DNA of 64,000 nt from Candidatus Eiseniibacteriota bacterium (GCA_041486775.1 JBGPMB010000001.1:1505-65504); one strand, 5' to 3'. Counted from the stretch's first letter, positions 5,689 through 58,932 are shown. The notes: a model not told the origin generated them from the letters alone. Numbers and translations: made by a program.

Positions 5689-6392
5689 AACCCGAACCAG
5701 ATCTTGCGGTGAAAGGGGCTCAGCTCGTGCCCGATCAGGAACGAGGATTCCGGGTCCGCGTTTCCCACGAAGAGCCGGGCTCCGCTCACGTCCTCGGGGA
5801 GATCGAAGACCAGCTCCGTGAGATAGGACTCGCCGGGAACGAGCGGGCGGGAGAGCGGCGTCGACGGGACGCCCGCGTCCCCGAGGGCGCGCGCGCCCGC
5901 CGGCGAGAGCTCGAAGCGCCGGCCGGTGGCATCCACGATGTAGACCTGCCGCGGATTCGGGTAGAGCGGCGCGTCTTTCGGGCGCATCGGCGAGATGGTG
6001 CTCTCGTCGAACCAGGTCTTCAGCGAGATGACGTAGAAGGTCCCGGCCGCGCGCACGGGCCGCGCGTGGTTTCCGAGCGTTTTCGACGTGACGACGCGCT
6101 CCACCGAATACGCCAGGTGGCAGTCGATCTCGCAGAAGTACTTCTTCGCGCCGTGGGGGAGGACCCGCTCCTGGCTCGTGAGTGAGGCGCCGAGGAGCAG
6201 TGTCGCGTATCCTGCCGGGATCGCGAGCAGGGCGATGGCCGCCCCGAGGCGGACCCTCGCGTGATTCCGGGCGACGCCGTAGACGAGGACCGCCGCGGAC
6301 AGCATCCCGGCCAGGATGGAGCCGAGGAACAAGAGGACGACGATCGGAGCGTACGAGGGCATGAGCACCATGAGAAGCACTTTATGATACAA
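5685..6392 (-). CDS. Hypothetical membrane-anchored protein (N-terminal TM helices plus soluble domain with a CxxxC motif)
   Basis: 235 aa, with an N-terminal hydrophobic segment and a YFCEIDCH motif. It is divergent from the TauE gene. I could not recognise a family by eye. Confidence 0.5.
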   Translation of the reverse strand: MYHKVLLMVLMPSYAPIVVLLFLGSILAGMLSAAVLVYGVARNHARVRLGAAIALLAIPAGYATLLLGASLTSQERVLPHGAKKYFCEIDCHLAYSVERVVTSKTLGNHARPVRAAGTFYVISLKTWFDESTISPMRPKDAPLYPNPRQVYIVDATGRRFELSPAGARALGDAGVPSTPLSRPLVPGESYLTELVFDLPEDVSGARLFVGNADPESSFLIGHELSPFHRKIWFGL

Positions 6393-53744: not shown

Positions 53745-54188
53745 ATGATTCGCTCGAACCAGATTCGCACGCTTTCCGCCTTCGCCATCGCGATCCTGCT
53801 TCCGATCGCGGCGTTCGCGGCCACGGGTACGGCCAAGTCCTCCGCGACACCGGCCCCGAAGGCTGCGGTAACCAACGCGACGGCAACCACGGCCCATTCG
53901 CACCCGGCGCACCTGGCCTCGAAGACCAAGCGCGCCCCCGCGGTGGACATCAACAGCGCGAGCAAGGAAGACCTGATGAAGCTGCCGGGCATCACCGACG
54001 AGCTCGCGCAGAAGATCATCGACGCCCGGCCGTACAAGACGAAGATGGAGCTCACCAAGAAGAACGTGCTCACGAAGCTCGAGTACGGCAAGGTGCGCGG
54101 CCACGTGATCGCGAAGCAGGAAGCCAAGACGCCGGAAGCCAAGTCGACGGAGACCACGCCCGAGACGAAGACGCCGGATTCCAAGTAG
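53745..54188 (+). CDS. ComEA-like helix-hairpin-helix DNA-binding protein, secreted
   Basis: Signal peptide; C-terminal VDINSASKEDLMKLPGITDELAQKIIDARPYKT is the ComEA tandem HhH motif; Lys/Thr/Pro-rich tail. Confidence 0.75.
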   Translation: MIRSNQIRTLSAFAIAILLPIAAFAATGTAKSSATPAPKAAVTNATATTAHSHPAHLASKTKRAPAVDINSASKEDLMKLPGITDELAQKIIDARPYKTKMELTKKNVLTKLEYGKVRGHVIAKQEAKTPEAKSTETTPETKTPDSK

Positions 54189-54206
54189 TTCGTCGTTTCT
54201 TTCTGG

Positions 54207-54255
54207 CCCGTGGAGGGGCGGAAGCCTAGAGTCTCTCCACGGGCTTTTTTATTTT
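54207..54255 (+). terminator. Rho-independent terminator after the comEA-like gene
   Basis: CCCGUGGAG-(19 nt loop)-CUCCACGGG is followed by CUUUUUUAUUUU. This is the only strong T-run in the region. Confidence 0.6.
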
Positions 54256-54270
54256 CCGTCCTCGCCGAGG

Positions 54271-56490
54271 GTGTGCATGTTTCGACTCATCGCGCGCTAC
54301 ACCGAATGGCTCCACACGCGCTGGCCCGCCGGAACCGTGGAGAGGCTCCCGGAGGCGGCCCCGGATGGGACGACCAACGTTCCGGGGGTCTCGATCTCGG
54401 GGGATCTGACCGGCATCCCGCTTCTCAAGTTCGCCCTCGACTCCGGGGCGCGCGCCGCGCGCTCGGCCGCGCCGGGCGCGCCGGACGGCGTGCTCGATCT
54501 CGCGATCGTGGGCGCCGGCGTGTCCGGGATGGCGGCCGCGGTCGAGGCCCGGAAGCTCGGACTCGCCTTCGAGATTCTCGAGGCGGCGGAGCCTTTCTCC
54601 ACGCTCGTGAATTTTCCGAAGGGGAAGCCGATCTACACCTACCCGCGCTCGATGAAGCCGGCGGGGGACCTGCAAGTGAGGGCCGAGGTGAAAGAGGACC
54701 TGGTCTCCGAGCTCAGGTCCCAGACCGAGAGAGCCGGGATCCGTCCTAAGGCGGCCCGCGCGGAGCGCGTGGAGCGAGCGGGCAATCTTCTCGGCGTGCG
54801 CCTCGAGGGAGGCGCCACGCTCAAGGCGCGCCGGGTGTTGATCGCGATCGGGAAGAGCGGGGGTCACCGGATGCTGGGCGTGCCGGGTGAGCACCTCGAC
54901 AAAGTGTACAACCGTCTCTACGACCCCAAGGACTACGCGGGGCAGGAGGCGCTGGTCGTCGGAGGCGGGGATTCCGCGCTGGAGACCGCGATCGCGCTCG
55001 TCCAGGCGGGCGCGCACGTCACGCTCTCCTATCGCCGGAAGGAATTCTCGCGCGCGAAGGGCGAGAACATAGCGAAGCTCTACCTCCTCGAGGAAGGAGG
55101 GGCGCTCCGGCTCCGGTTGGGCACGCAGGTGAAGGAGATCCGCCCGAGCGAGGTAGCACTCGCGGACGGCGGGGAGGAGACGATTCGAAACGACGTCGTC
55201 TTCACGATGCTCGGCCGCGAGGCGCCGCTGGAATTCTTCCGGCGCTCCGGGATCCGGATCGCCGGGGAGATGCGCGGCGCGCAATGGGCGGCGCTATCGC
55301 TCTTCGTCCTCTTCTGCGTCTGGCTCTACAACTGGAAATCCGGCGGCTCCATGTCGCAGCTCTTCGCCGACCGCCACTGGTTCCCGTTCAACCTGCCCGA
55401 TCTCCTGAGCCGGCTCGGGGGCGCGATCGCGGCCGACGCCCGGACACCCCGAACGCTTCTCGGCACGATCGCCATCAGCGCCTCGGGCCCCTCGTTCTGG
55501 TACACGCTCGCCTACTCCACCGTGGTGGTGATCTTCGGGCTCAAGCGCATCCGCCGGCGGAAGACTCCCTACGTGACCGCCCAGACGACGACGCTCATGA
55601 TGGTCCAGGTCCTTCCGCTCTTTCTCCTGCCCGAGATCATTCTGCCGCAGCTCGCCTACCACGGCCTCCTGCCGCGCGGGCTCCTGGACGCGCTCTTTCC
55701 CGTCGTGACGTACGGGCACGGCCGGGAATTCTGGCGCGCGTACGGGCTCATCCTCGCGTGGCCGCTGGACGTCTACAACATCTTCACCCACGACCCCCTG
55801 TGGTGGTGGATCGGGATCGGAGTCGTTCAGACCCTCGTCCTGATCCCGCTCGGCATCTACTTCTTCGGCAAGGGTGTCTATTGCGGCTGGATCTGCTCGT
55901 GCGGCGCGCTCGCCGAAACCCTGGGGGACACGCACCGCCACAAGATGCCCCACGGGCCCGCCTGGAACCGCCTGAACATGGCGGGGCAGGGCGTTCTTCT
56001 GATCGCGGTCCTCATCCTCCTCATCCGGATCGTCGGCTGGATTCTTCCGGACGGGAACGCCATCGATTCCGTGTTCGATCCCTTCTTCAAGACGCCGTAC
56101 AAGTGGGGGGTCGACGTGTTCCTCGCGGGGGTACTGGGCTACGGGCTCTACTTCTGGTTCTCGGGCCGCGTCTGGTGCCGCTTCTTCTGTCCGCTGGCCG
56201 CGCTCATGCACGTCTACGCGCGCTTCAGCCGGTTCGCGATCGTCGCCGACAAGAAGAAATGCATCTCCTGCAATGTGTGCACTTCGGTCTGCCATCAGGG
56301 GATCGACGTGATGAACTTCGCGAACAAGGGCGCGCCGATGCAGGACCCCGAGTGCGTGCGCTGCTCGGCGTGCGTGCAGAGCTGCCCCACCGGGGTGCTC
56401 CAGTTCGGCCAGGTCGACCGGAAAGGGAAGACCCTGAAGCTGGACCTCCTCCCGGCGTCCCCGGTGATCATGCGGGAAGGGCCGGCGTGA
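54271..56490 (+). CDS. Fusion protein: FAD/NAD(P)-binding pyridine-nucleotide-disulfide-oxidoreductase-like flavoprotein, then polytopic membrane domain with NapH/CcoG-type and 2x[4Fe-4S] ferredoxin Cys motifs
   Basis: There are two Rossmann dinucleotide sites (DLAIVGAGVSGMAAA and ALVVGGGDSALETAIAL), about 8 TM helices, and membrane-proximal Cys motifs (GVYCGWICSCGAL and RVWCRFFCPLAAL). The C-terminal 4Fe-4S motifs are CISCNVCTSVCHQG and CVRCSACVQSCPTG. 739 aa. Confidence 0.8.
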   Translation: MCMFRLIARYTEWLHTRWPAGTVERLPEAAPDGTTNVPGVSISGDLTGIPLLKFALDSGARAARSAAPGAPDGVLDLAIVGAGVSGMAAAVEARKLGLAFEILEAAEPFSTLVNFPKGKPIYTYPRSMKPAGDLQVRAEVKEDLVSELRSQTERAGIRPKAARAERVERAGNLLGVRLEGGATLKARRVLIAIGKSGGHRMLGVPGEHLDKVYNRLYDPKDYAGQEALVVGGGDSALETAIALVQAGAHVTLSYRRKEFSRAKGENIAKLYLLEEGGALRLRLGTQVKEIRPSEVALADGGEETIRNDVVFTMLGREAPLEFFRRSGIRIAGEMRGAQWAALSLFVLFCVWLYNWKSGGSMSQLFADRHWFPFNLPDLLSRLGGAIAADARTPRTLLGTIAISASGPSFWYTLAYSTVVVIFGLKRIRRRKTPYVTAQTTTLMMVQVLPLFLLPEIILPQLAYHGLLPRGLLDALFPVVTYGHGREFWRAYGLILAWPLDVYNIFTHDPLWWWIGIGVVQTLVLIPLGIYFFGKGVYCGWICSCGALAETLGDTHRHKMPHGPAWNRLNMAGQGVLLIAVLILLIRIVGWILPDGNAIDSVFDPFFKTPYKWGVDVFLAGVLGYGLYFWFSGRVWCRFFCPLAALMHVYARFSRFAIVADKKKCISCNVCTSVCHQGIDVMNFANKGAPMQDPECVRCSACVQSCPTGVLQFGQVDRKGKTLKLDLLPASPVIMREGPA

Positions 56491-56491
56491 G

Positions 56492-57355
56492 GTGATGGGC
56501 GGCCCCCGGGTGGAGTTTCGGTCTCTGGACACCGTCTGGGTCCAGATTACCGGCACGCTCTGCAACATCGCCTGCCGCCACTGCTTCGTGAGCGCCGGGC
56601 CCAAGAGCGATTCGCTCGCGCTCATGACGCGGGCGCAGGTGGAGACGGCCCTCACGGAAGGGGCCGAGCTGGGGGCGCGGGATGCTTACTTCACCGGAGG
56701 GGAGCCTTTCCTCCATCCCGAGATCCGGAGTCTGGTGGACTTCGCTCTCCAGCGGATGCCGCTCACCATCCTGACCAACGCGCTCCTCATCGACGAGGAG
56801 CTCGCCGGGTGGATCGCGGACCGCTTCTCGGGAAGCCGCTACTCCTTCGATCTCCGCGTGAGCCTCGACGGCACGACCGCCGAGCGGAACGACCGGGTGC
56901 GTGGACGGGGCGTCTTCGACGGCGTCGTGGCCGCGCTCGGACATCTGGCGCGGGCCGGCGTCTCGCCGGTGGTCACCGTGGTGGAGCACGAGGAGGCGTT
57001 GAAGGCTGCGGAGGCGCGTGCGGTGTTCACGGAGTTCCTGCGCGGGCTGGGGCTCCCGCATCCGCGGATCAAGTTCCTGCCTCTGCTCCGCATCGGGAGG
57101 GAAGTGCGGCGCTCGCGCGGGTACCTCGAGCGCGAGGCGTTGGGGCCCGAGCCTCTCGCCCCCGAGGTCGAGGAATCGCTGATCTGCTCCTCGAGCCGGA
57201 CCGTGACGGCCCAAGGCGTCATGACCTGCCCGATTCTGGTCGAGGTTCCCGAGGCGCGGCTGGGAGATTCGCTCCGTCAGGCGGAGCGCGCCATCCAGCT
57301 TCGCTGGCGCGCCTGCCACACGTGCGTCGTGGAAGGGCTTCGCTGCGCGACGTGA
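56492..57355 (+). CDS. Radical SAM enzyme with C-terminal twitch/SPASM-like auxiliary cluster motif
   Basis: CNIACRHCF is the CxxxCxxC rSAM cluster site and FTGGEPFLHPE is the SAM-binding GGE motif. The C-terminus has Cx13C...CHTCVVEGLRC. The start lies 1 nt after the upstream TGA. Confidence 0.85.
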   Translation: MMGGPRVEFRSLDTVWVQITGTLCNIACRHCFVSAGPKSDSLALMTRAQVETALTEGAELGARDAYFTGGEPFLHPEIRSLVDFALQRMPLTILTNALLIDEELAGWIADRFSGSRYSFDLRVSLDGTTAERNDRVRGRGVFDGVVAALGHLARAGVSPVVTVVEHEEALKAAEARAVFTEFLRGLGLPHPRIKFLPLLRIGREVRRSRGYLEREALGPEPLAPEVEESLICSSSRTVTAQGVMTCPILVEVPEARLGDSLRQAERAIQLRWRACHTCVVEGLRCAT

Positions 57356-57394: not shown

Positions 57395-58789
57395 CTAGCG
57401 CTGCCGGGGCCCGTACGCCTGGCCCCGGGCCGGCTCCGCGCGGTCCAGGTCCGCGAGGGTCTGCGTGAGAGGCTCCCAGACCTGCCCGAACGCGAGCTTC
57501 GCCAGCTCGCCCTCGGGGGGCAGCTCGCCCAGGAAGAACGCCCGCCCGTTCGCCCGAAGCACCCAGCCGTCGCCGTAGCGCGACGCGTATCCGCTCCCAC
57601 GGTCGCTCCGCGTCCGCGCGAGGAGGTCGCCGAGCGTCCAGTCGCCGCAATGGTCCTGCCAGTCCGAGTCGACCCGCTTCGCCCGATCCGGGTCCTGCTT
57701 TCTCAGGTCGGGGGGAATCAGGCAGTAGTCCTTGTCGTCACCGCTCACGGGGGTCGATGCCAGAATGGAGTGGGCAAAGGCATGGAGCGTCCCCGAATTC
57801 CCGGTGATGGCCGTCTCATCCTCCACGTTCAGGATGGAGTACTCATAGCCCACCGACAGCTCGCGGTCGCGTGTCACAACGACCATCGTGCCTTCCGAAT
57901 AGCGCTCCCGTTCGGCGCCCTTGTCGTCCTTGTCCACGGTCTTGTGGTAGACGGTCTGGGTGAAGGCGCCGACATTCGTGTTGGTGCGCAGGCCGTAGAA
58001 CCGGCCCACGATCACGCGATCCACGCCCAGGTCGCGCCCGATGCGCGCGGCCTGCCGCGGGCTCAGTCGGTCGAGCATCGCCACGGGGAGCGCCTCATAG
58101 ACGCGCTCGCTCGGGATGAGCTCGGTGAAGCGGAAATCGGAGGAGGCGATCCTCCGCGACAGCTCGGCGTAGGCCCGGTCCGCGAATCCCTTGGAGAGGG
58201 CGCCGAGATCGGTCTCGTTCGCGAAAGGGAAGAACGCGACGCGGGGCTGGGTCTCGTCGTAGGCCTGCTGGATCCGGTGCGCGACGTCCCGGTACCGCGC
58301 CTGGAACTGCTGCGCCGTCTGGAACTCGTCGTAGGCGCGCTTGGGAGCGCCCCCCTCGAGATCGTCCACCGCCTGCGCGTACTCGATGCCCGCCGCGCCG
58401 TGCCGGATCGCCGCATCGTCGCGGTCGAACGCGGGATCGGGCGGGAGCACGATCCGATACGCCGCCAGCTCGTCCTGGAATTTGCCCAACTCGAGCGAGC
58501 GGTTCGCGGCCGCCAGGGTGTCCCGGGCCGCGAGCCTGCGGATCTCGGTCTCGCGCTCGTCCACGAGTCTCGTCGCGACCTGCGTCATCGCGGCTCGGGC
58601 CCGCTGGTTCTCGGGATCCTTCCGCAACGCGCGCGCGGCCTTCTGGTAGGCCTTATCCAGCTCACCCTGGCCGTACGCCTTTTCGCTTTGCTGCGCGAGC
58701 TTGTTCGATCCCGCGCATGAGAGCGCGAGCGTGCCGGCGACGAGAACCCCCACGAGCAGACGTGCCTTGAGCCCGAATCGATCGTTCAT
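57395..58789 (-). CDS. Hypothetical lipoprotein with N-terminal TPR-like helical region
   Basis: AGGAGGG ribosome-binding site; signal/lipobox LVAGTLALSCAGS. 464 aa; no family recognised. Confidence 0.55.
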   Translation of the reverse strand: MNDRFGLKARLLVGVLVAGTLALSCAGSNKLAQQSEKAYGQGELDKAYQKAARALRKDPENQRARAAMTQVATRLVDERETEIRRLAARDTLAAANRSLELGKFQDELAAYRIVLPPDPAFDRDDAAIRHGAAGIEYAQAVDDLEGGAPKRAYDEFQTAQQFQARYRDVAHRIQQAYDETQPRVAFFPFANETDLGALSKGFADRAYAELSRRIASSDFRFTELIPSERVYEALPVAMLDRLSPRQAARIGRDLGVDRVIVGRFYGLRTNTNVGAFTQTVYHKTVDKDDKGAERERYSEGTMVVVTRDRELSVGYEYSILNVEDETAITGNSGTLHAFAHSILASTPVSGDDKDYCLIPPDLRKQDPDRAKRVDSDWQDHCGDWTLGDLLARTRSDRGSGYASRYGDGWVLRANGRAFFLGELPPEGELAKLAFGQVWEPLTQTLADLDRAEPARGQAYGPRQR

Positions 58790-58932
58790 GATTCCCTCCT
58801 TGTCGTGCATCTATCGGCAGGTCCCGCCCAATGTATAGCCCTCCGGAACAGGTGCGGCCGTGGTAGGTTAGCCGGCATGGCGCCGGGAGCATCCCCTGCT
58901 CCCGGTCATGAACTCCGACACGGAGGTGAAGC

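What the first reader, a model, noticed from the sequence alone, without database searches (positions are those of the whole stretch)
54271..57355. Flavoprotein-polyferredoxin membrane fusion directly upstream of a compact radical-SAM/twitch enzyme
The upstream gene encodes a single 739-aa polypeptide with three parts: a two-Rossmann FAD/NAD(P) oxidoreductase module, about 8 TM helices carrying NapH/CcoG-type Cys motifs (YCGWICSC, WCRFFCPLAAL), and two CxxCxxCxxxCP ferredoxin clusters. It stops (TGA 56488-56490) 1 nt before the GTG at 56492 of a 287-aa radical-SAM enzyme with a C-terminal auxiliary Cys cluster. The pair follows a strong terminator, so it is an autonomous two-gene unit. The simplest reading is a self-contained NAD(P)H to FAD to [4Fe-4S]n relay that supplies low-potential electrons at the membrane to a dedicated rSAM enzyme. 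I know of no characterised system with this architecture. The flavoprotein also begins with a GDLTG-like segment (PGVSISGDLTGIPLLKFALDSGARAA) that resembles the C-terminal FAD-contact motif of thioredoxin-reductase-like enzymes placed before the first GxGxxG, which hints at a domain permutation.
Basis: partly seen in the sequence, partly recalled or inferred. Interest (0 to 1): 0.75.

Follow-up and report, generated by a model that had tools for sequence, protein, structure and literature searches.

The report
Membrane flavo-FeS reductase beside ArsS-like enzyme
A membrane-anchored NADPH/FAD/iron-sulfur protein and an ArsS-like radical SAM enzyme form a tight gene pair, but only in one soil-bacterial lineage; elsewhere each gene lives with other partners, so this is a local re-pairing of two uncharacterised families, not a universal new system.

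Summary
Both ORFs, the 1-nt gap, the Cys motifs, the domain content and the upstream hairpin terminator are all present.

The pair is conserved only where the fusion protein is at least 75 % identical to the window's: 18 loci plus the window.
- In 80 loci of rSAM orthologs from many phyla, none has the fusion gene adjacent. There the rSAM is followed by a metallophosphoesterase in 73 of 80 loci. It often also has a soluble flavoprotein (adjacent or fused), DUF2064, an AhpD-like gene or an ArsM-type methyltransferase.
- In other clades of the fusion family, the downstream slot holds a small methyltransferase or unrelated genes.

The rSAM is a distant but full-length homolog of ArsS, the arsenosugar C–As bond-forming enzyme, and shares all five C-terminal cysteines. 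It fails the ArsS model cutoff.

The fusion is a stand-alone family: a Cys-free, apparently circularly permuted YpdA/TrxR-type flavoprotein, six TM helices, NapH-like Cys motifs and two [4Fe-4S] motifs, all cytoplasmic.

NAD(P)H flavoproteins of at least three unrelated architectures recur next to ArsS-class rSAMs. A functional reductase role for the fusion here is therefore plausible but unproven. Interest is moderate.

The parts
53745..54188 (+). Upstream gene: ComEA-like helix-hairpin-helix (HHH_3) protein, 147 aa. It is syntenic with the pair throughout the lineage.
   Evidence: ORF. PF12836 HHH_3 is called on the syntenic genes in L081 and L082. A family of 15 loci lies directly upstream of the fusion gene (fam9).
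54205..54256 (+). Conserved hairpin (15-bp stem, 11-nt loop) followed by a U6AU4 tract. It is an intrinsic-terminator-like element between the HHH_3 gene and the fusion gene.
   Evidence: RNAfold gives dG -29.9 kcal/mol, z = -3.25. It is unique in the window. It is conserved in 14 distinct loci, with 14 pairs and one compensatory pair.
54271..56490 (+). ORF A: membrane flavo-iron-sulfur fusion protein, 739 aa from GTG 54271. The likely real start is ATG 54277, preceded by SD GAGGG at 54267-54271.
54367..54462 (+). ORF A aa 33-64: displaced GD/FAD-contact segment (TNVPGVSISGDLTGIPLLKFALDSGARAA), placed before the first GxGxxG. This is an apparent circular permutation.
   Evidence: G39, G44, D45, L46, G48, P50-K53, D57, G59 and A60 are invariant in 43 homologs. 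Solved relatives lack a counterpart after aa 345. AF2 models strand 40-43 plus helix 52-64.
54496..55272 (+). ORF A aa 76-334: two-Rossmann FAD/NAD(P)H module, YpdA/TrxR-type. It is Cys-free, with GAGVSG and GGGDSA motifs and an NADPH-type YRRxxxSR motif.
   Evidence: Pyr_redox_3 at 96 bits and Pyr_redox_2 at 84 bits. TIGR04018 YpdA at 112 bits, below its 340 cutoff. PDB YpdA/Bdr 7a76/7a7b and TrxR-type FNRs by sequence and by fold. Cys positions are listed.
55276..56157 (+). ORF A aa 336-629: membrane domain with six long TM helices (336-356, 407-430, 433-463, 511-532, 563-591, 597-629). Topology is N-in and C-in.
   Evidence: AF2 secondary structure. Hydropathy and loop charge, including KRIRRRK at 425-431.
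55879..55905 (+). ORF A aa 537-545: YCGWICSCG, a NapH-type Cys motif (Cx3CxC) at the cytoplasmic end of TM4.
   Evidence: Pfam Fer4_5. C538, C542 and C544 are invariant.
56173..56205 (+). ORF A aa 635-645: WCRFFCPLAAL, a NapH-type Cx3CP motif at the cytoplasmic end of TM6.
   Evidence: Pfam Fer4_5, second stretch. C636, C640 and P641 are invariant.
56239..56400 (+). ORF A aa 657-710: 2x[4Fe-4S] ferredoxin-type domain (CxxCxxCxxxCH and CxxCxxCxxxCP).
   Evidence: Fer4_10, Fer4_7, Fer4_21 and Fer4_9. NapH TIGR02163 at 66 bits, below its 213 cutoff. All eight Cys are invariant.
56492..57355 (+). ORF B: ArsS-like radical SAM enzyme, 287 aa from GTG 56492. The likely start is ATG 56495.
56561..56584 (+). 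ORF B aa 24-31: CNIACRHC radical SAM cluster motif, within the ArsS-like signature CNxACxHCxVxAGPK.
   Evidence: Invariant in the alignment. Aligned with ArsS.
57185..57346 (+). ORF B aa 232-285: C-terminal auxiliary-cluster domain with five invariant Cys (Cx13C...Cx2Cx6C). It is colinear with the five Cys of the ArsS DUF3641 domain.
   Evidence: Fold matches to twitch/SPASM enzymes SkfB, BlsE, MoaA and anSME.
57395..58810 (-). Convergent downstream gene: 471-aa predicted lipoprotein with no Pfam hit. It marks the 3' boundary of the pair and is syntenic in the lineage.
   Evidence: Syntenic genes in L081 and L082 have no Pfam hit. Family of 16 loci (fam7).

Best explanation
The locus is a lineage-restricted operon that joins two independently widespread, uncharacterised gene families.

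**Gene A** encodes a stand-alone membrane oxidoreductase. It has an NADPH-binding, Cys-free flavoprotein of the YpdA/TrxR-type ferredoxin-reductase class, whose last FAD-contact segment has moved to the N-terminus. This is followed by six TM helices carrying two NapH-type Cys motifs and a 2x[4Fe-4S] domain. All redox modules face the cytoplasm.

**Gene B** encodes a compact ArsS-like radical SAM enzyme. Elsewhere this family works with a metallophosphoesterase, and often with a soluble flavoprotein, DUF2064, an AhpD-like protein and an ArsM-type methyltransferase.

ArsS-class enzymes repeatedly recruit an NAD(P)H flavoprotein. In this lineage A most likely fills that role: NADPH to FAD to [4Fe-4S]2, then on to B. 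The more likely target is B's clusters, so that SAM can be cleaved reductively. The less likely target is B's substrate.

**Shown:** the anatomy, homologies, gene-neighbourhood statistics and topology.
**Inferred:** cofactor content, direction of electron flow, any physical A-B contact, and B's chemistry (adenosyl or other radical transfer to a metalloid-type substrate, by analogy with ArsS).
For: **Tight operonic arrangement.**
- The stop and start codons are 1-4 nt apart.
- The pair is kept in 18 further loci, down to 75 % (A) and 70 % (B) identity.

**A looks like a fused ferredoxin reductase plus ferredoxin.**
- YpdA/TrxR-type FNR relatives are found by sequence and by fold.
- There is no Cys in aa 76-334.
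- Eight invariant ferredoxin Cys are present.
- The topology is cytoplasmic.

**B is ArsS-like.**
- hhalign gives 98.2 % probability, E = 5e-14, over 231 columns.
- All five C-terminal Cys align with those of ArsS.
- ArsM-type methyltransferases are adjacent to B-type rSAMs in 6 of 80 loci and fused in P0262.

**Flavoproteins recur with ArsS-class rSAMs.**
- The fam6 flavoprotein is adjacent in 25 of 80 B loci and fused in P0255 and P0261.
- A MerA-like flavoprotein sits in 4 of 7 sampled ArsS operons.
- A-family genes lie next to bona fide ArsS-ArsM in the Acidoferrum lineage.
- So the A family sits next to ArsS-class rSAMs in two separate clades, involving two different rSAM subfamilies.

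**Local context.** B's usual partners are absent from the window and from 168 kb of lineage loci.
Against: - 0 of 80 B-family loci have A adjacent. About 66 of 84 A-family loci have no B-type rSAM next to them. Each family therefore has a function independent of the other.
- The wider synteny (ABC transporter, HHH_3, convergent lipoprotein) is conserved as well as the pair is. The lineage-level conservation could reflect common descent alone.
- The downstream slot of A is occupied by a Cys-free methyltransferase in the sister clade and by unrelated genes elsewhere.
- The A-ArsS adjacency is convergent and confined to one narrow lineage.
- The ArsS reaction is redox-neutral after priming (PMC13598754), so a dedicated reductase is not obviously needed.
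- The membrane module has no evident role in reducing a soluble rSAM.
- No ars genes lie in the 64-kb window.
Confidence: 0.4

Rival explanations
1. Neighbours by descent only. The rSAM gene landed in, or was retained at, a permissive slot downstream of a stand-alone membrane oxidoreductase gene in the ancestor of one lineage. The two proteins have no functional connection. A serves some other membrane redox task, such as NAD(P)H:quinone or metal-ion reduction in the manner of NapH/CcoG relatives. B uses generic cellular reductants.
For: - The pair is restricted to one lineage.
- The flanking synteny is equally conserved.
- The slot downstream of A is variable: a methyltransferase in 11 loci and heterogeneous genes in about 30.
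- The A family is very widespread without any rSAM (3903 hits).
- There is no compositional anomaly.
Against: - The 1-4 nt spacing suggests co-translation.
- A-family genes sit beside ArsS-class rSAMs in two independent clades. That is unlikely for rare single-copy genes.
- Flavoproteins recur with, and are even fused to, ArsS-class rSAMs.
Confidence: 0.33
2. Substrate-side coupling in metalloid metabolism. A is a membrane-associated reductase that generates or maintains the reduced (trivalent) metalloid substrate, or a thiol or cofactor needed for it. B then alkylates or adenosylates that substrate, by analogy with DMAs(III) for ArsS. A does not reduce B's cluster directly.
For: - The B family is linked to ArsM-type methyltransferases by adjacency and by fusion.
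- A MerA-like disulfide or metal-ion reductase-type flavoprotein sits in ArsS operons.
- An A-family gene lies next to ArsM-ArsS.
- CcoG, a relative of the membrane module, is known as a cupric reductase (general knowledge).
Against: - There are no ars genes in the window.
- A's flavoprotein has no Cys for metalloid or thiol chemistry.
- Most A-family contexts show no metalloid theme.
- The replacement methyltransferase in the sister clade has no Cys at all (sequence).
Confidence: 0.15
3. One reading: a self-contained, co-evolved two-gene module, made of a dedicated membrane reductase and its own rSAM, that constitutes a new conserved system recurring across phyla.
For: The architecture and the tight spacing in the window. 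Conservation within the lineage.
Against: - 0 of 80 rSAM loci across Myxococcota, Chloroflexota, Acidobacteriota, Eisenbacteria, Calditrichota, Fibrobacterota, Bacteroidota, Elusimicrobiota and others have the fusion gene.
- The rSAM's conserved partner is a metallophosphoesterase.
- The fusion family mostly lacks the rSAM.
Confidence: 0.04

Closest known systems
ArsS (TIGR04167), the arsenosugar-biosynthesis radical SAM enzyme that adenosylates DMAs(III) to form DDMAA
   Same: - Homologous over about 230 columns (hhalign 98 %).
- Shares the signature CNxACxHCxVxAGPK.
- Has the same five C-terminal Cys in the same order.
- Family members are found adjacent or fused to ArsM-type methyltransferases, and next to DUF2064 (TIGR04282-like) and AhpD (TIGR04169-like) genes.
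   Different: - Scores 65 bits against a cutoff of 300.
- Pfam DUF3641 is not detected.
- About 50 aa shorter, with two deletions.
- The near-universal partner is a metallophosphoesterase, which was not seen in the sampled ArsS operons.
- The window itself has no ArsM.
- The substrate is unknown.
NapH / MauN / NosR / CcoG family of membrane polyferredoxins (Fer4_5 plus 2x[4Fe-4S])
   Same: - TM helices are each followed by a cytoplasmic Cx3C(P) motif.
- There is a C-terminal cytoplasmic domain with two 4Fe-4S motifs.
   Different: - Far below the family cutoffs (NapH 66 of 213; NosR 27 of 1000).
- Six TM helices instead of four.
- The first motif is Cx3CxC without Pro.
- The N-terminal NADPH flavoprotein is a new addition.
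- There is no NapG/NapC/Nos/cbb3 context and no FixG_C domain.
YpdA/Bdr and TrxR-type ferredoxin-NADP+ reductases (PDB 7a76, 7a7b, 2zbw, 3ab1)
   Same: - Best sequence and fold matches for aa 76-345.
- Two Rossmann domains.
- No CxxC redox disulfide, as in TrxR-type FNRs.
   Different: - 112 bits against a cutoff of 340 for YpdA.
- The C-terminal GD/FAD segment appears moved to the N-terminus.
- No Cys at all.
- Covalently tethered to a membrane Fe-S module.
Dedicated electron-donor modules for radical SAM enzymes: the flavodoxin domain of TYW1, Dph3/Cbr1 for Dph1-Dph2, and the flavodoxin or ferredoxin plus FNR systems (general knowledge)
   Same: The concept is the same: an NAD(P)H-flavoprotein-(Fe-S or flavin) chain is placed in cis or in an operon with an rSAM enzyme to reduce its cluster.
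   Different: - Those donors are soluble. Here the candidate donor is an integral membrane protein.
- It usually occurs without any rSAM.
- No biochemical link has been shown.
Twitch/SPASM radical SAM enzymes (SkfB 6efn, BlsE 7vob, MoaA 2fb2, anSME 4k37)
   Same: These are the best full-length fold matches. They have a partial TIM barrel followed by a Cys-rich auxiliary-cluster domain.
   Different: - No SPASM (PF13186) or TIGR04085 hit.
- The Cys spacing is of the ArsS type.
- Sequence identity is only 15-20 %.

Membership tests
ArsS (TIGR04167, arsenosugar radical SAM) | Whole-protein score at or above the curated cutoff of 300 bits | tested here: not met
   65.2 bits, covering only aa 9-156. 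A genuine ArsS from L156 scores 446 bits.
ArsS (TIGR04167, arsenosugar radical SAM) | C-terminal DUF3641 (PF12345) Cys-rich domain | tested here: inconclusive
   Pfam does not detect DUF3641. However, all five Cys of that domain align with C232, C246, C275, C278 and C285, and hhalign extends to the first two.
ArsS (TIGR04167, arsenosugar radical SAM) | Genomic linkage to the ArsM arsenite methyltransferase | tested here: not met
   There is no ArsM-like sequence in the 64-kb window. Within the wider B family, ArsM is adjacent in 6 of 80 loci and fused in P0262.
ArsS (TIGR04167, arsenosugar radical SAM) | Catalyses 5'-deoxyadenosyl transfer to DMAs(III) | not testable with these tools
   This needs enzymology. 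The reaction is described in PMC13598754.
Radical SAM superfamily (PF04055) | CxxxCxxC motif in a partial TIM barrel, with a score above the gathering threshold | tested here: met
   54.7 bits against a cutoff of 29.5. C24, C28 and C31 are invariant.
SPASM/twitch subgroup | Hit to the SPASM HMM (PF13186 or TIGR04085) | tested here: not met
   Only Radical_SAM and Fer4_12 are hit. No SPASM-type NCBIfam model reaches its cutoff.
SPASM/twitch subgroup | Cys-rich auxiliary-cluster domain after the barrel, structurally like twitch enzymes | tested here: met
   Five invariant Cys. The best Foldseek matches are SkfB (292 columns), BlsE, MoaA and anSME. The model has mean pLDDT 76.
NapH/MauN (TIGR02163) | Score at or above the cutoff of 213 bits | tested here: not met
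   65.8 bits for aa 530-712.
NapH/MauN (TIGR02163) | Four TM helices with two cytoplasmic Cx3CP motifs, plus a C-terminal domain with two 4Fe-4S motifs | tested here: inconclusive
   The last four of six TM helices carry Cx3CxC (no Pro) and Cx3CP motifs. The 2x4Fe-4S motifs are present. The arrangement is similar but the architecture is extended.
CcoG/FixG/RdxA | C-terminal FixG_C (IPT-like) domain and a cbb3-oxidase assembly context | tested here: not met
   No FixG_C hit. No cco genes appear in any neighbourhood.
YpdA/Bdr (TIGR04018) | Score at or above the cutoff of 339.9 bits | tested here: not met
   112.3 bits. It is nevertheless the closest solved relative.
Thioredoxin reductase (TIGR01292) | Redox-active CxxC in the NADPH domain | tested here: not met
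   There is no Cys between residues 3 and 348. The score is 62 bits against a cutoff of 343.
   0 of 80 rSAM loci. 18 of 84 fusion loci, all in one clade with the fusion at least 75 % identical to the window's.

The most novel reading that the evidence does not exclude
The fusion family is a previously unrecognised membrane-bound NADPH-driven electron-input module for ArsS-class radical SAM chemistry. It is one of at least three non-orthologous flavoprotein solutions that organo-metalloid pathways recruit; the others are a MerA-like protein and the fam6 flavoprotein. The window's rSAM represents a second, widespread ArsS-like enzyme family, normally paired with a metallophosphoesterase, that makes an unknown organoarsenical or other organo-metalloid compound.
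Probability: 0.2. Interest if true: 0.75.

Novelty: new variant of a known kind. Interest (0 to 1): 0.5.

Why it matters
**Gene B.** It flags a large ArsS-like radical SAM family with no curated model or characterised member. The family is present in hundreds of species genomes across many phyla, including the cultured Hyalangium gracile. Its gene partners (a metallophosphoesterase, a flavoprotein, DUF2064, AhpD and ArsM) suggest an unexplored organo-metalloid pathway parallel to arsenosugar synthesis.

**Gene A.** It is a widespread, uncharacterised membrane enzyme in soil phyla, with a rare circularly permuted flavoprotein fold.

**The recurring flavoprotein.** NAD(P)H flavoproteins appear repeatedly beside ArsS-class enzymes. 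This points to a reductase step in these pathways that has not been described: either cluster reduction or reduction of pentavalent methylarsenicals.

If A really reduces B, it would be the first membrane-anchored dedicated reductant for a radical SAM enzyme. If it does not, the locus is an ordinary lineage-specific gene juxtaposition.

Tried and rejected
- **Fusion gene in the rSAM loci.** tblastn of the fusion protein in 80 rSAM-ortholog loci found none adjacent.
- **Usual rSAM partners in the window and its lineage.** tblastn and HMM searches for the metallophosphoesterase, fam6, DUF2064 and AhpD found none in the window or in 18 lineage loci.
- **fam6 versus the fusion's flavoprotein module.** BLASTP found nothing specific. 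hhalign matched only the generic NAD-binding half (96.9 %, 153 columns). fam6 is therefore not the same flavoprotein.
- **N-terminal 76 aa against NCBIfam at E <= 10.** No hits, so HMMs give no support for the permutation. A pairwise match to the TrxB GD motif was the only sequence support.
- **Universal neighbours of the fusion family.** None beyond shadow ORFs.
- **Regulatory RNA.** Rfam at gathering threshold gave 0 hits over the whole window.
- **Promoter scan.** 0 sites.
- **Literature.** No relevant paper turned up for Rv1681 plus radical SAM, radical SAM plus metallophosphoesterase plus DUF2064, NapH/CcoG plus FAD fusion, or arsenosugar gene clusters.
- **Curated rSAM families.** Rv1681, MftC, StsB, HpnH, MoaA, NirJ, viperin, QueE and NrdG-type activases are all far below cutoff or absent.
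- **Recent horizontal acquisition of B.** GC3 matches the neighbours, so this was rejected.
- **Hairpin as a dispersed REP-like repeat.** It is unique, so this was rejected.
- **Taxonomic naming of the lineage.** Only a 'Candidatus Binatia' MAG label on a 90 %-identical fusion protein was found.

Full report
**1.

- ORF A (54271..56490, 739 aa) and ORF B (56492..57355, 287 aa) are on the + strand.
- The TGA at 56488-56490 is followed after one base by GTG 56492, with an ATG at 56495.
- Pfam and NCBIfam confirm the parts of A:
  - Pyr_redox_3/Pyr_redox_2 (aa 76-334). The best curated model is YpdA at 112 bits, below its 340 cutoff.
  - Two Fer4_5 stretches and a NapH-like match (aa 527-715) at 66 bits, below its 213 cutoff.
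  - A 4Fe-4S dicluster domain (aa 657-710).
- B hits Radical_SAM only. There is no SPASM or twitch model, and no curated NCBIfam family comes near its cutoff. The best are Rv1681-like at 84 of 380 bits and ArsS at 65 of 300 bits.
- The upstream hairpin is a strong terminator-like structure: a 15-bp stem, -29.9 kcal/mol, z = -3.25, followed by U6AU4. The simple scan missed it because its loop is 11 nt.

- There are six long TM helices rather than eight (AF2; hydropathy and positive-inside loops). This places the flavoprotein, both Cys motifs and the ferredoxin domain on the cytoplasmic side.
- The first ferredoxin motif ends CH, not CP.
- The probable starts are ATG 54277 (SD GAGGG five bases upstream; homologs begin MF...) and ATG 56495 (the identical database protein P0001 has 286 aa).
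- 'Autonomous unit' is not proven. Only about 10 nt lie between the U-tract and the SD, no promoter-like site was found, and no terminator follows B.

**2. The pair is lineage-restricted**

Both proteins have thousands of relatives.

*Starting from the rSAM.* A scan of one genome per species with an rSAM alignment found orthologs in at least 596 genomes. These include Myxococcota, Bradymonadia, Ktedonobacterales, Thermoanaerobaculia and other Acidobacteriota, Eisenbacteria, Fibrobacteres, Calditrichia, Bacteroidetes, Elusimicrobia and Omnitrophota. In the best 80 loci (38-62 % identity), tblastn found no adjacent fusion gene. There were only two weak partial hits, several kb away.

*Starting from the fusion protein.* A metagenome scan returned 80 loci, and look-ups added four more. 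The tally:

| Fusion identity to window | Downstream neighbour | Loci |
|---|---|---|
| 75 % or more | B-type rSAM directly downstream | 18 |
| 65-73 % | 243-aa, Cys-free Methyltransf_23 protein in the same slot | 11 |
| 54-56 % | Convergent ArsS-ArsM pair | 8 (near-identical) |
| Various | Unrelated genes | about 30 |

See also for the unrelated neighbours.

Within the window's lineage the wider synteny is conserved too: ABC transporter, HlyD, HHH_3, A, B and a convergent lipoprotein. The conservation of the pair therefore does not exceed the background.

**3. What the rSAM family normally does business with**

I clustered all ORFs around the 80 orthologs and annotated the recurrent families:

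| Partner | Frequency | Notes |
|---|---|---|
| Metallophosphoesterase (PF12850) | 73 of 80 | Directly downstream on the same strand; most exceptions are contig ends |
| Soluble Pyr_redox_3 flavoprotein, about 380 aa ('fam6') | 25 | Usually directly upstream |
| DUF2064 / TIGR04282-like | 19 | 115 bits against a cutoff of 134 |
| AhpD / TIGR04169-like | 13 | 108 bits against a cutoff of 120 |

Rosetta-stone fusions confirm these links:
- fam6 fused to the rSAM (P0255, P0261; 39-45 % identical to fam6).
- The metallophosphoesterase fused to the rSAM (P0361).
- The rSAM fused to an ArsM-type methyltransferase (P0262; PRK11873 at 237 bits against a cutoff of 263).

ArsM-type genes are adjacent in 6 of 80 loci. 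The cultured Hyalangium gracile has the rSAM-metallophosphoesterase pair and no fusion gene.

None of these partners occurs in the window or in 168 kb of lineage loci.

**4. The rSAM is ArsS-like but not ArsS**

- Profile-profile comparison with genuine ArsS gives 98.2 % probability, E = 5e-14, over 231 columns.
- A joint alignment shows the shared CNxACxHCxVxAGPK signature. All five C-terminal cysteines are colinear: Cx13-14C...Cx2Cx6-7C.
- The AF2 model (pLDDT 76) matches twitch/SPASM enzymes best over its full length: SkfB, BlsE, MoaA and anSME.
- It fails the ArsS model (65 of 300 bits). It lacks a detectable DUF3641, is about 50 aa shorter, and has a different core partner.
- ArsS adenosylates DMAs(III) in a redox-neutral reaction (PMC13598754).

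**5. The fusion protein**

- The flavoprotein module is closest to YpdA/Bdr and to the TrxR-type ferredoxin-NADP+ reductases, by sequence and by fold.
- It contains no cysteine, so it is not a disulfide reductase.
- Solved relatives align only to aa 76-345, which equals their residues 5-274 of about 326. The missing C-terminal GD/FAD segment appears at the N-terminus:
  - The segment is invariant in 43 homologs.
  - It is modelled as strand plus helix with good confidence.
  - HMMs did not detect it.
- The permutation is therefore plausible, but no structure has confirmed it.
- The YRRxxxSR motif after the second Rossmann fold resembles the HRRxxxR NADPH motif of TrxR (established knowledge; this is an inference).

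**6. A recurring theme that keeps the functional hypothesis alive**

- In the Acidoferrum lineage the fusion gene lies convergent to a bona fide ArsS (446 bits; DUF3641) and ArsM. The adjacency is lost at 73 % ArsS identity.
- In four of seven sampled ArsS operons there is a MerA/LpdA-type flavoprotein (NF004991, 720 bits against a cutoff of 620, with a CxxxxC motif). In two of them it overlaps the ArsS stop codon.
- Together with fam6, this makes three unrelated NAD(P)H flavoprotein architectures associated with ArsS-class rSAMs.
- The fusion family is found next to two different ArsS-class subfamilies, in two separate clades.

**7. Verdict**

- The strict reading, a self-contained and recurrent reductase-rSAM system, is not supported.
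- The best-supported reading is a lineage-specific operon in which a stand-alone membrane NADPH-FAD-FeS oxidoreductase has been recruited as the flavoprotein partner of an ArsS-like enzyme (confidence about 0.4).
- The main rival is that the two genes are neighbours by descent without functional coupling (about 0.33).
- A second rival is substrate-side coupling in metalloid reduction (about 0.15).
- Both families are uncharacterised variants of known kinds. Interest is moderate.

Noticed in passing
window 54205-54256; also L081 7690-7740, L085/L086 about 5930-5980, and others: The hairpin between the HHH_3 gene and the fusion gene is conserved in sequence, including its 11-13 nt loop (GCCTARAGTC), across 14 distinct loci. 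It has one compensatory pair (U-A to C-G), and it persists even where the U-tract has decayed. It is unique in the window and occurs once per locus. Because it sits only about 10 nt before the SD of the fusion gene, it may act as an attenuator or regulatory element rather than a plain terminator.
   Followed up: partly
L001-L080 (e.g. L072 7677-11637, L066 5046-11660) and L172 7001-8683: The B-type rSAM family has its own conserved cassette: the rSAM plus an overlapping metallophosphoesterase. Variable additions are DUF2064, AhpD-like, a roughly 380-aa flavoprotein, GT2 glycosyltransferases and ArsM. This parallels the 'arsenosugar' gene set, but every member scores below the curated cutoffs. 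It looks like an undescribed sister system.
   Followed up: partly
L167 3926-12293; L170 1152-8310; L168/L169 6001-8519: Bona fide ArsS operons often contain a MerA/LpdA-like flavoprotein (NF004991, with a CxxxxC motif), a PHO4-type transporter, a VTT/DedA protein and a DUF2064-GT2 fusion. In L168 and L169 the flavoprotein gene overlaps the ArsS stop codon. I found no description of a role for this flavoprotein in the papers searched.
   Followed up: partly
L083 12277-13005; L084 12372-13106; also L099, L103, L105, L108, L113, L119, L152: In the sister clade of the fusion family (65-73 % identity), a 243-aa methyltransferase (Methyltransf_23, no cysteine, no NCBIfam hit) occupies exactly the slot taken by the rSAM in the window. 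Its start overlaps or abuts the stop of the fusion gene.
   Followed up: partly
window 57395-58810 (-): The convergent 471-aa predicted lipoprotein has no Pfam hit on its syntenic homologs. It is conserved downstream of the pair in 16 loci of the lineage. Its function is unknown.
   Followed up: no
window 54226-55284 (-), 55294-56655 (-), 55284-56495 (+), 56468-57319 (-): Long 'shadow' ORFs of 280-450 aa overlap genes A and B in other frames. They recur in all homologous loci only because the underlying genes are conserved and GC3 is about 0.9. They are artefacts, not genes.
   Followed up: yes
L156 3034-5430 (+) and L165 10027-12417 (-): In the Acidoferrum lineage, the fusion gene is flanked on its other side by a conserved 796-aa fusion of an APH-type kinase domain and a class-III aminotransferase.
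   Followed up: no
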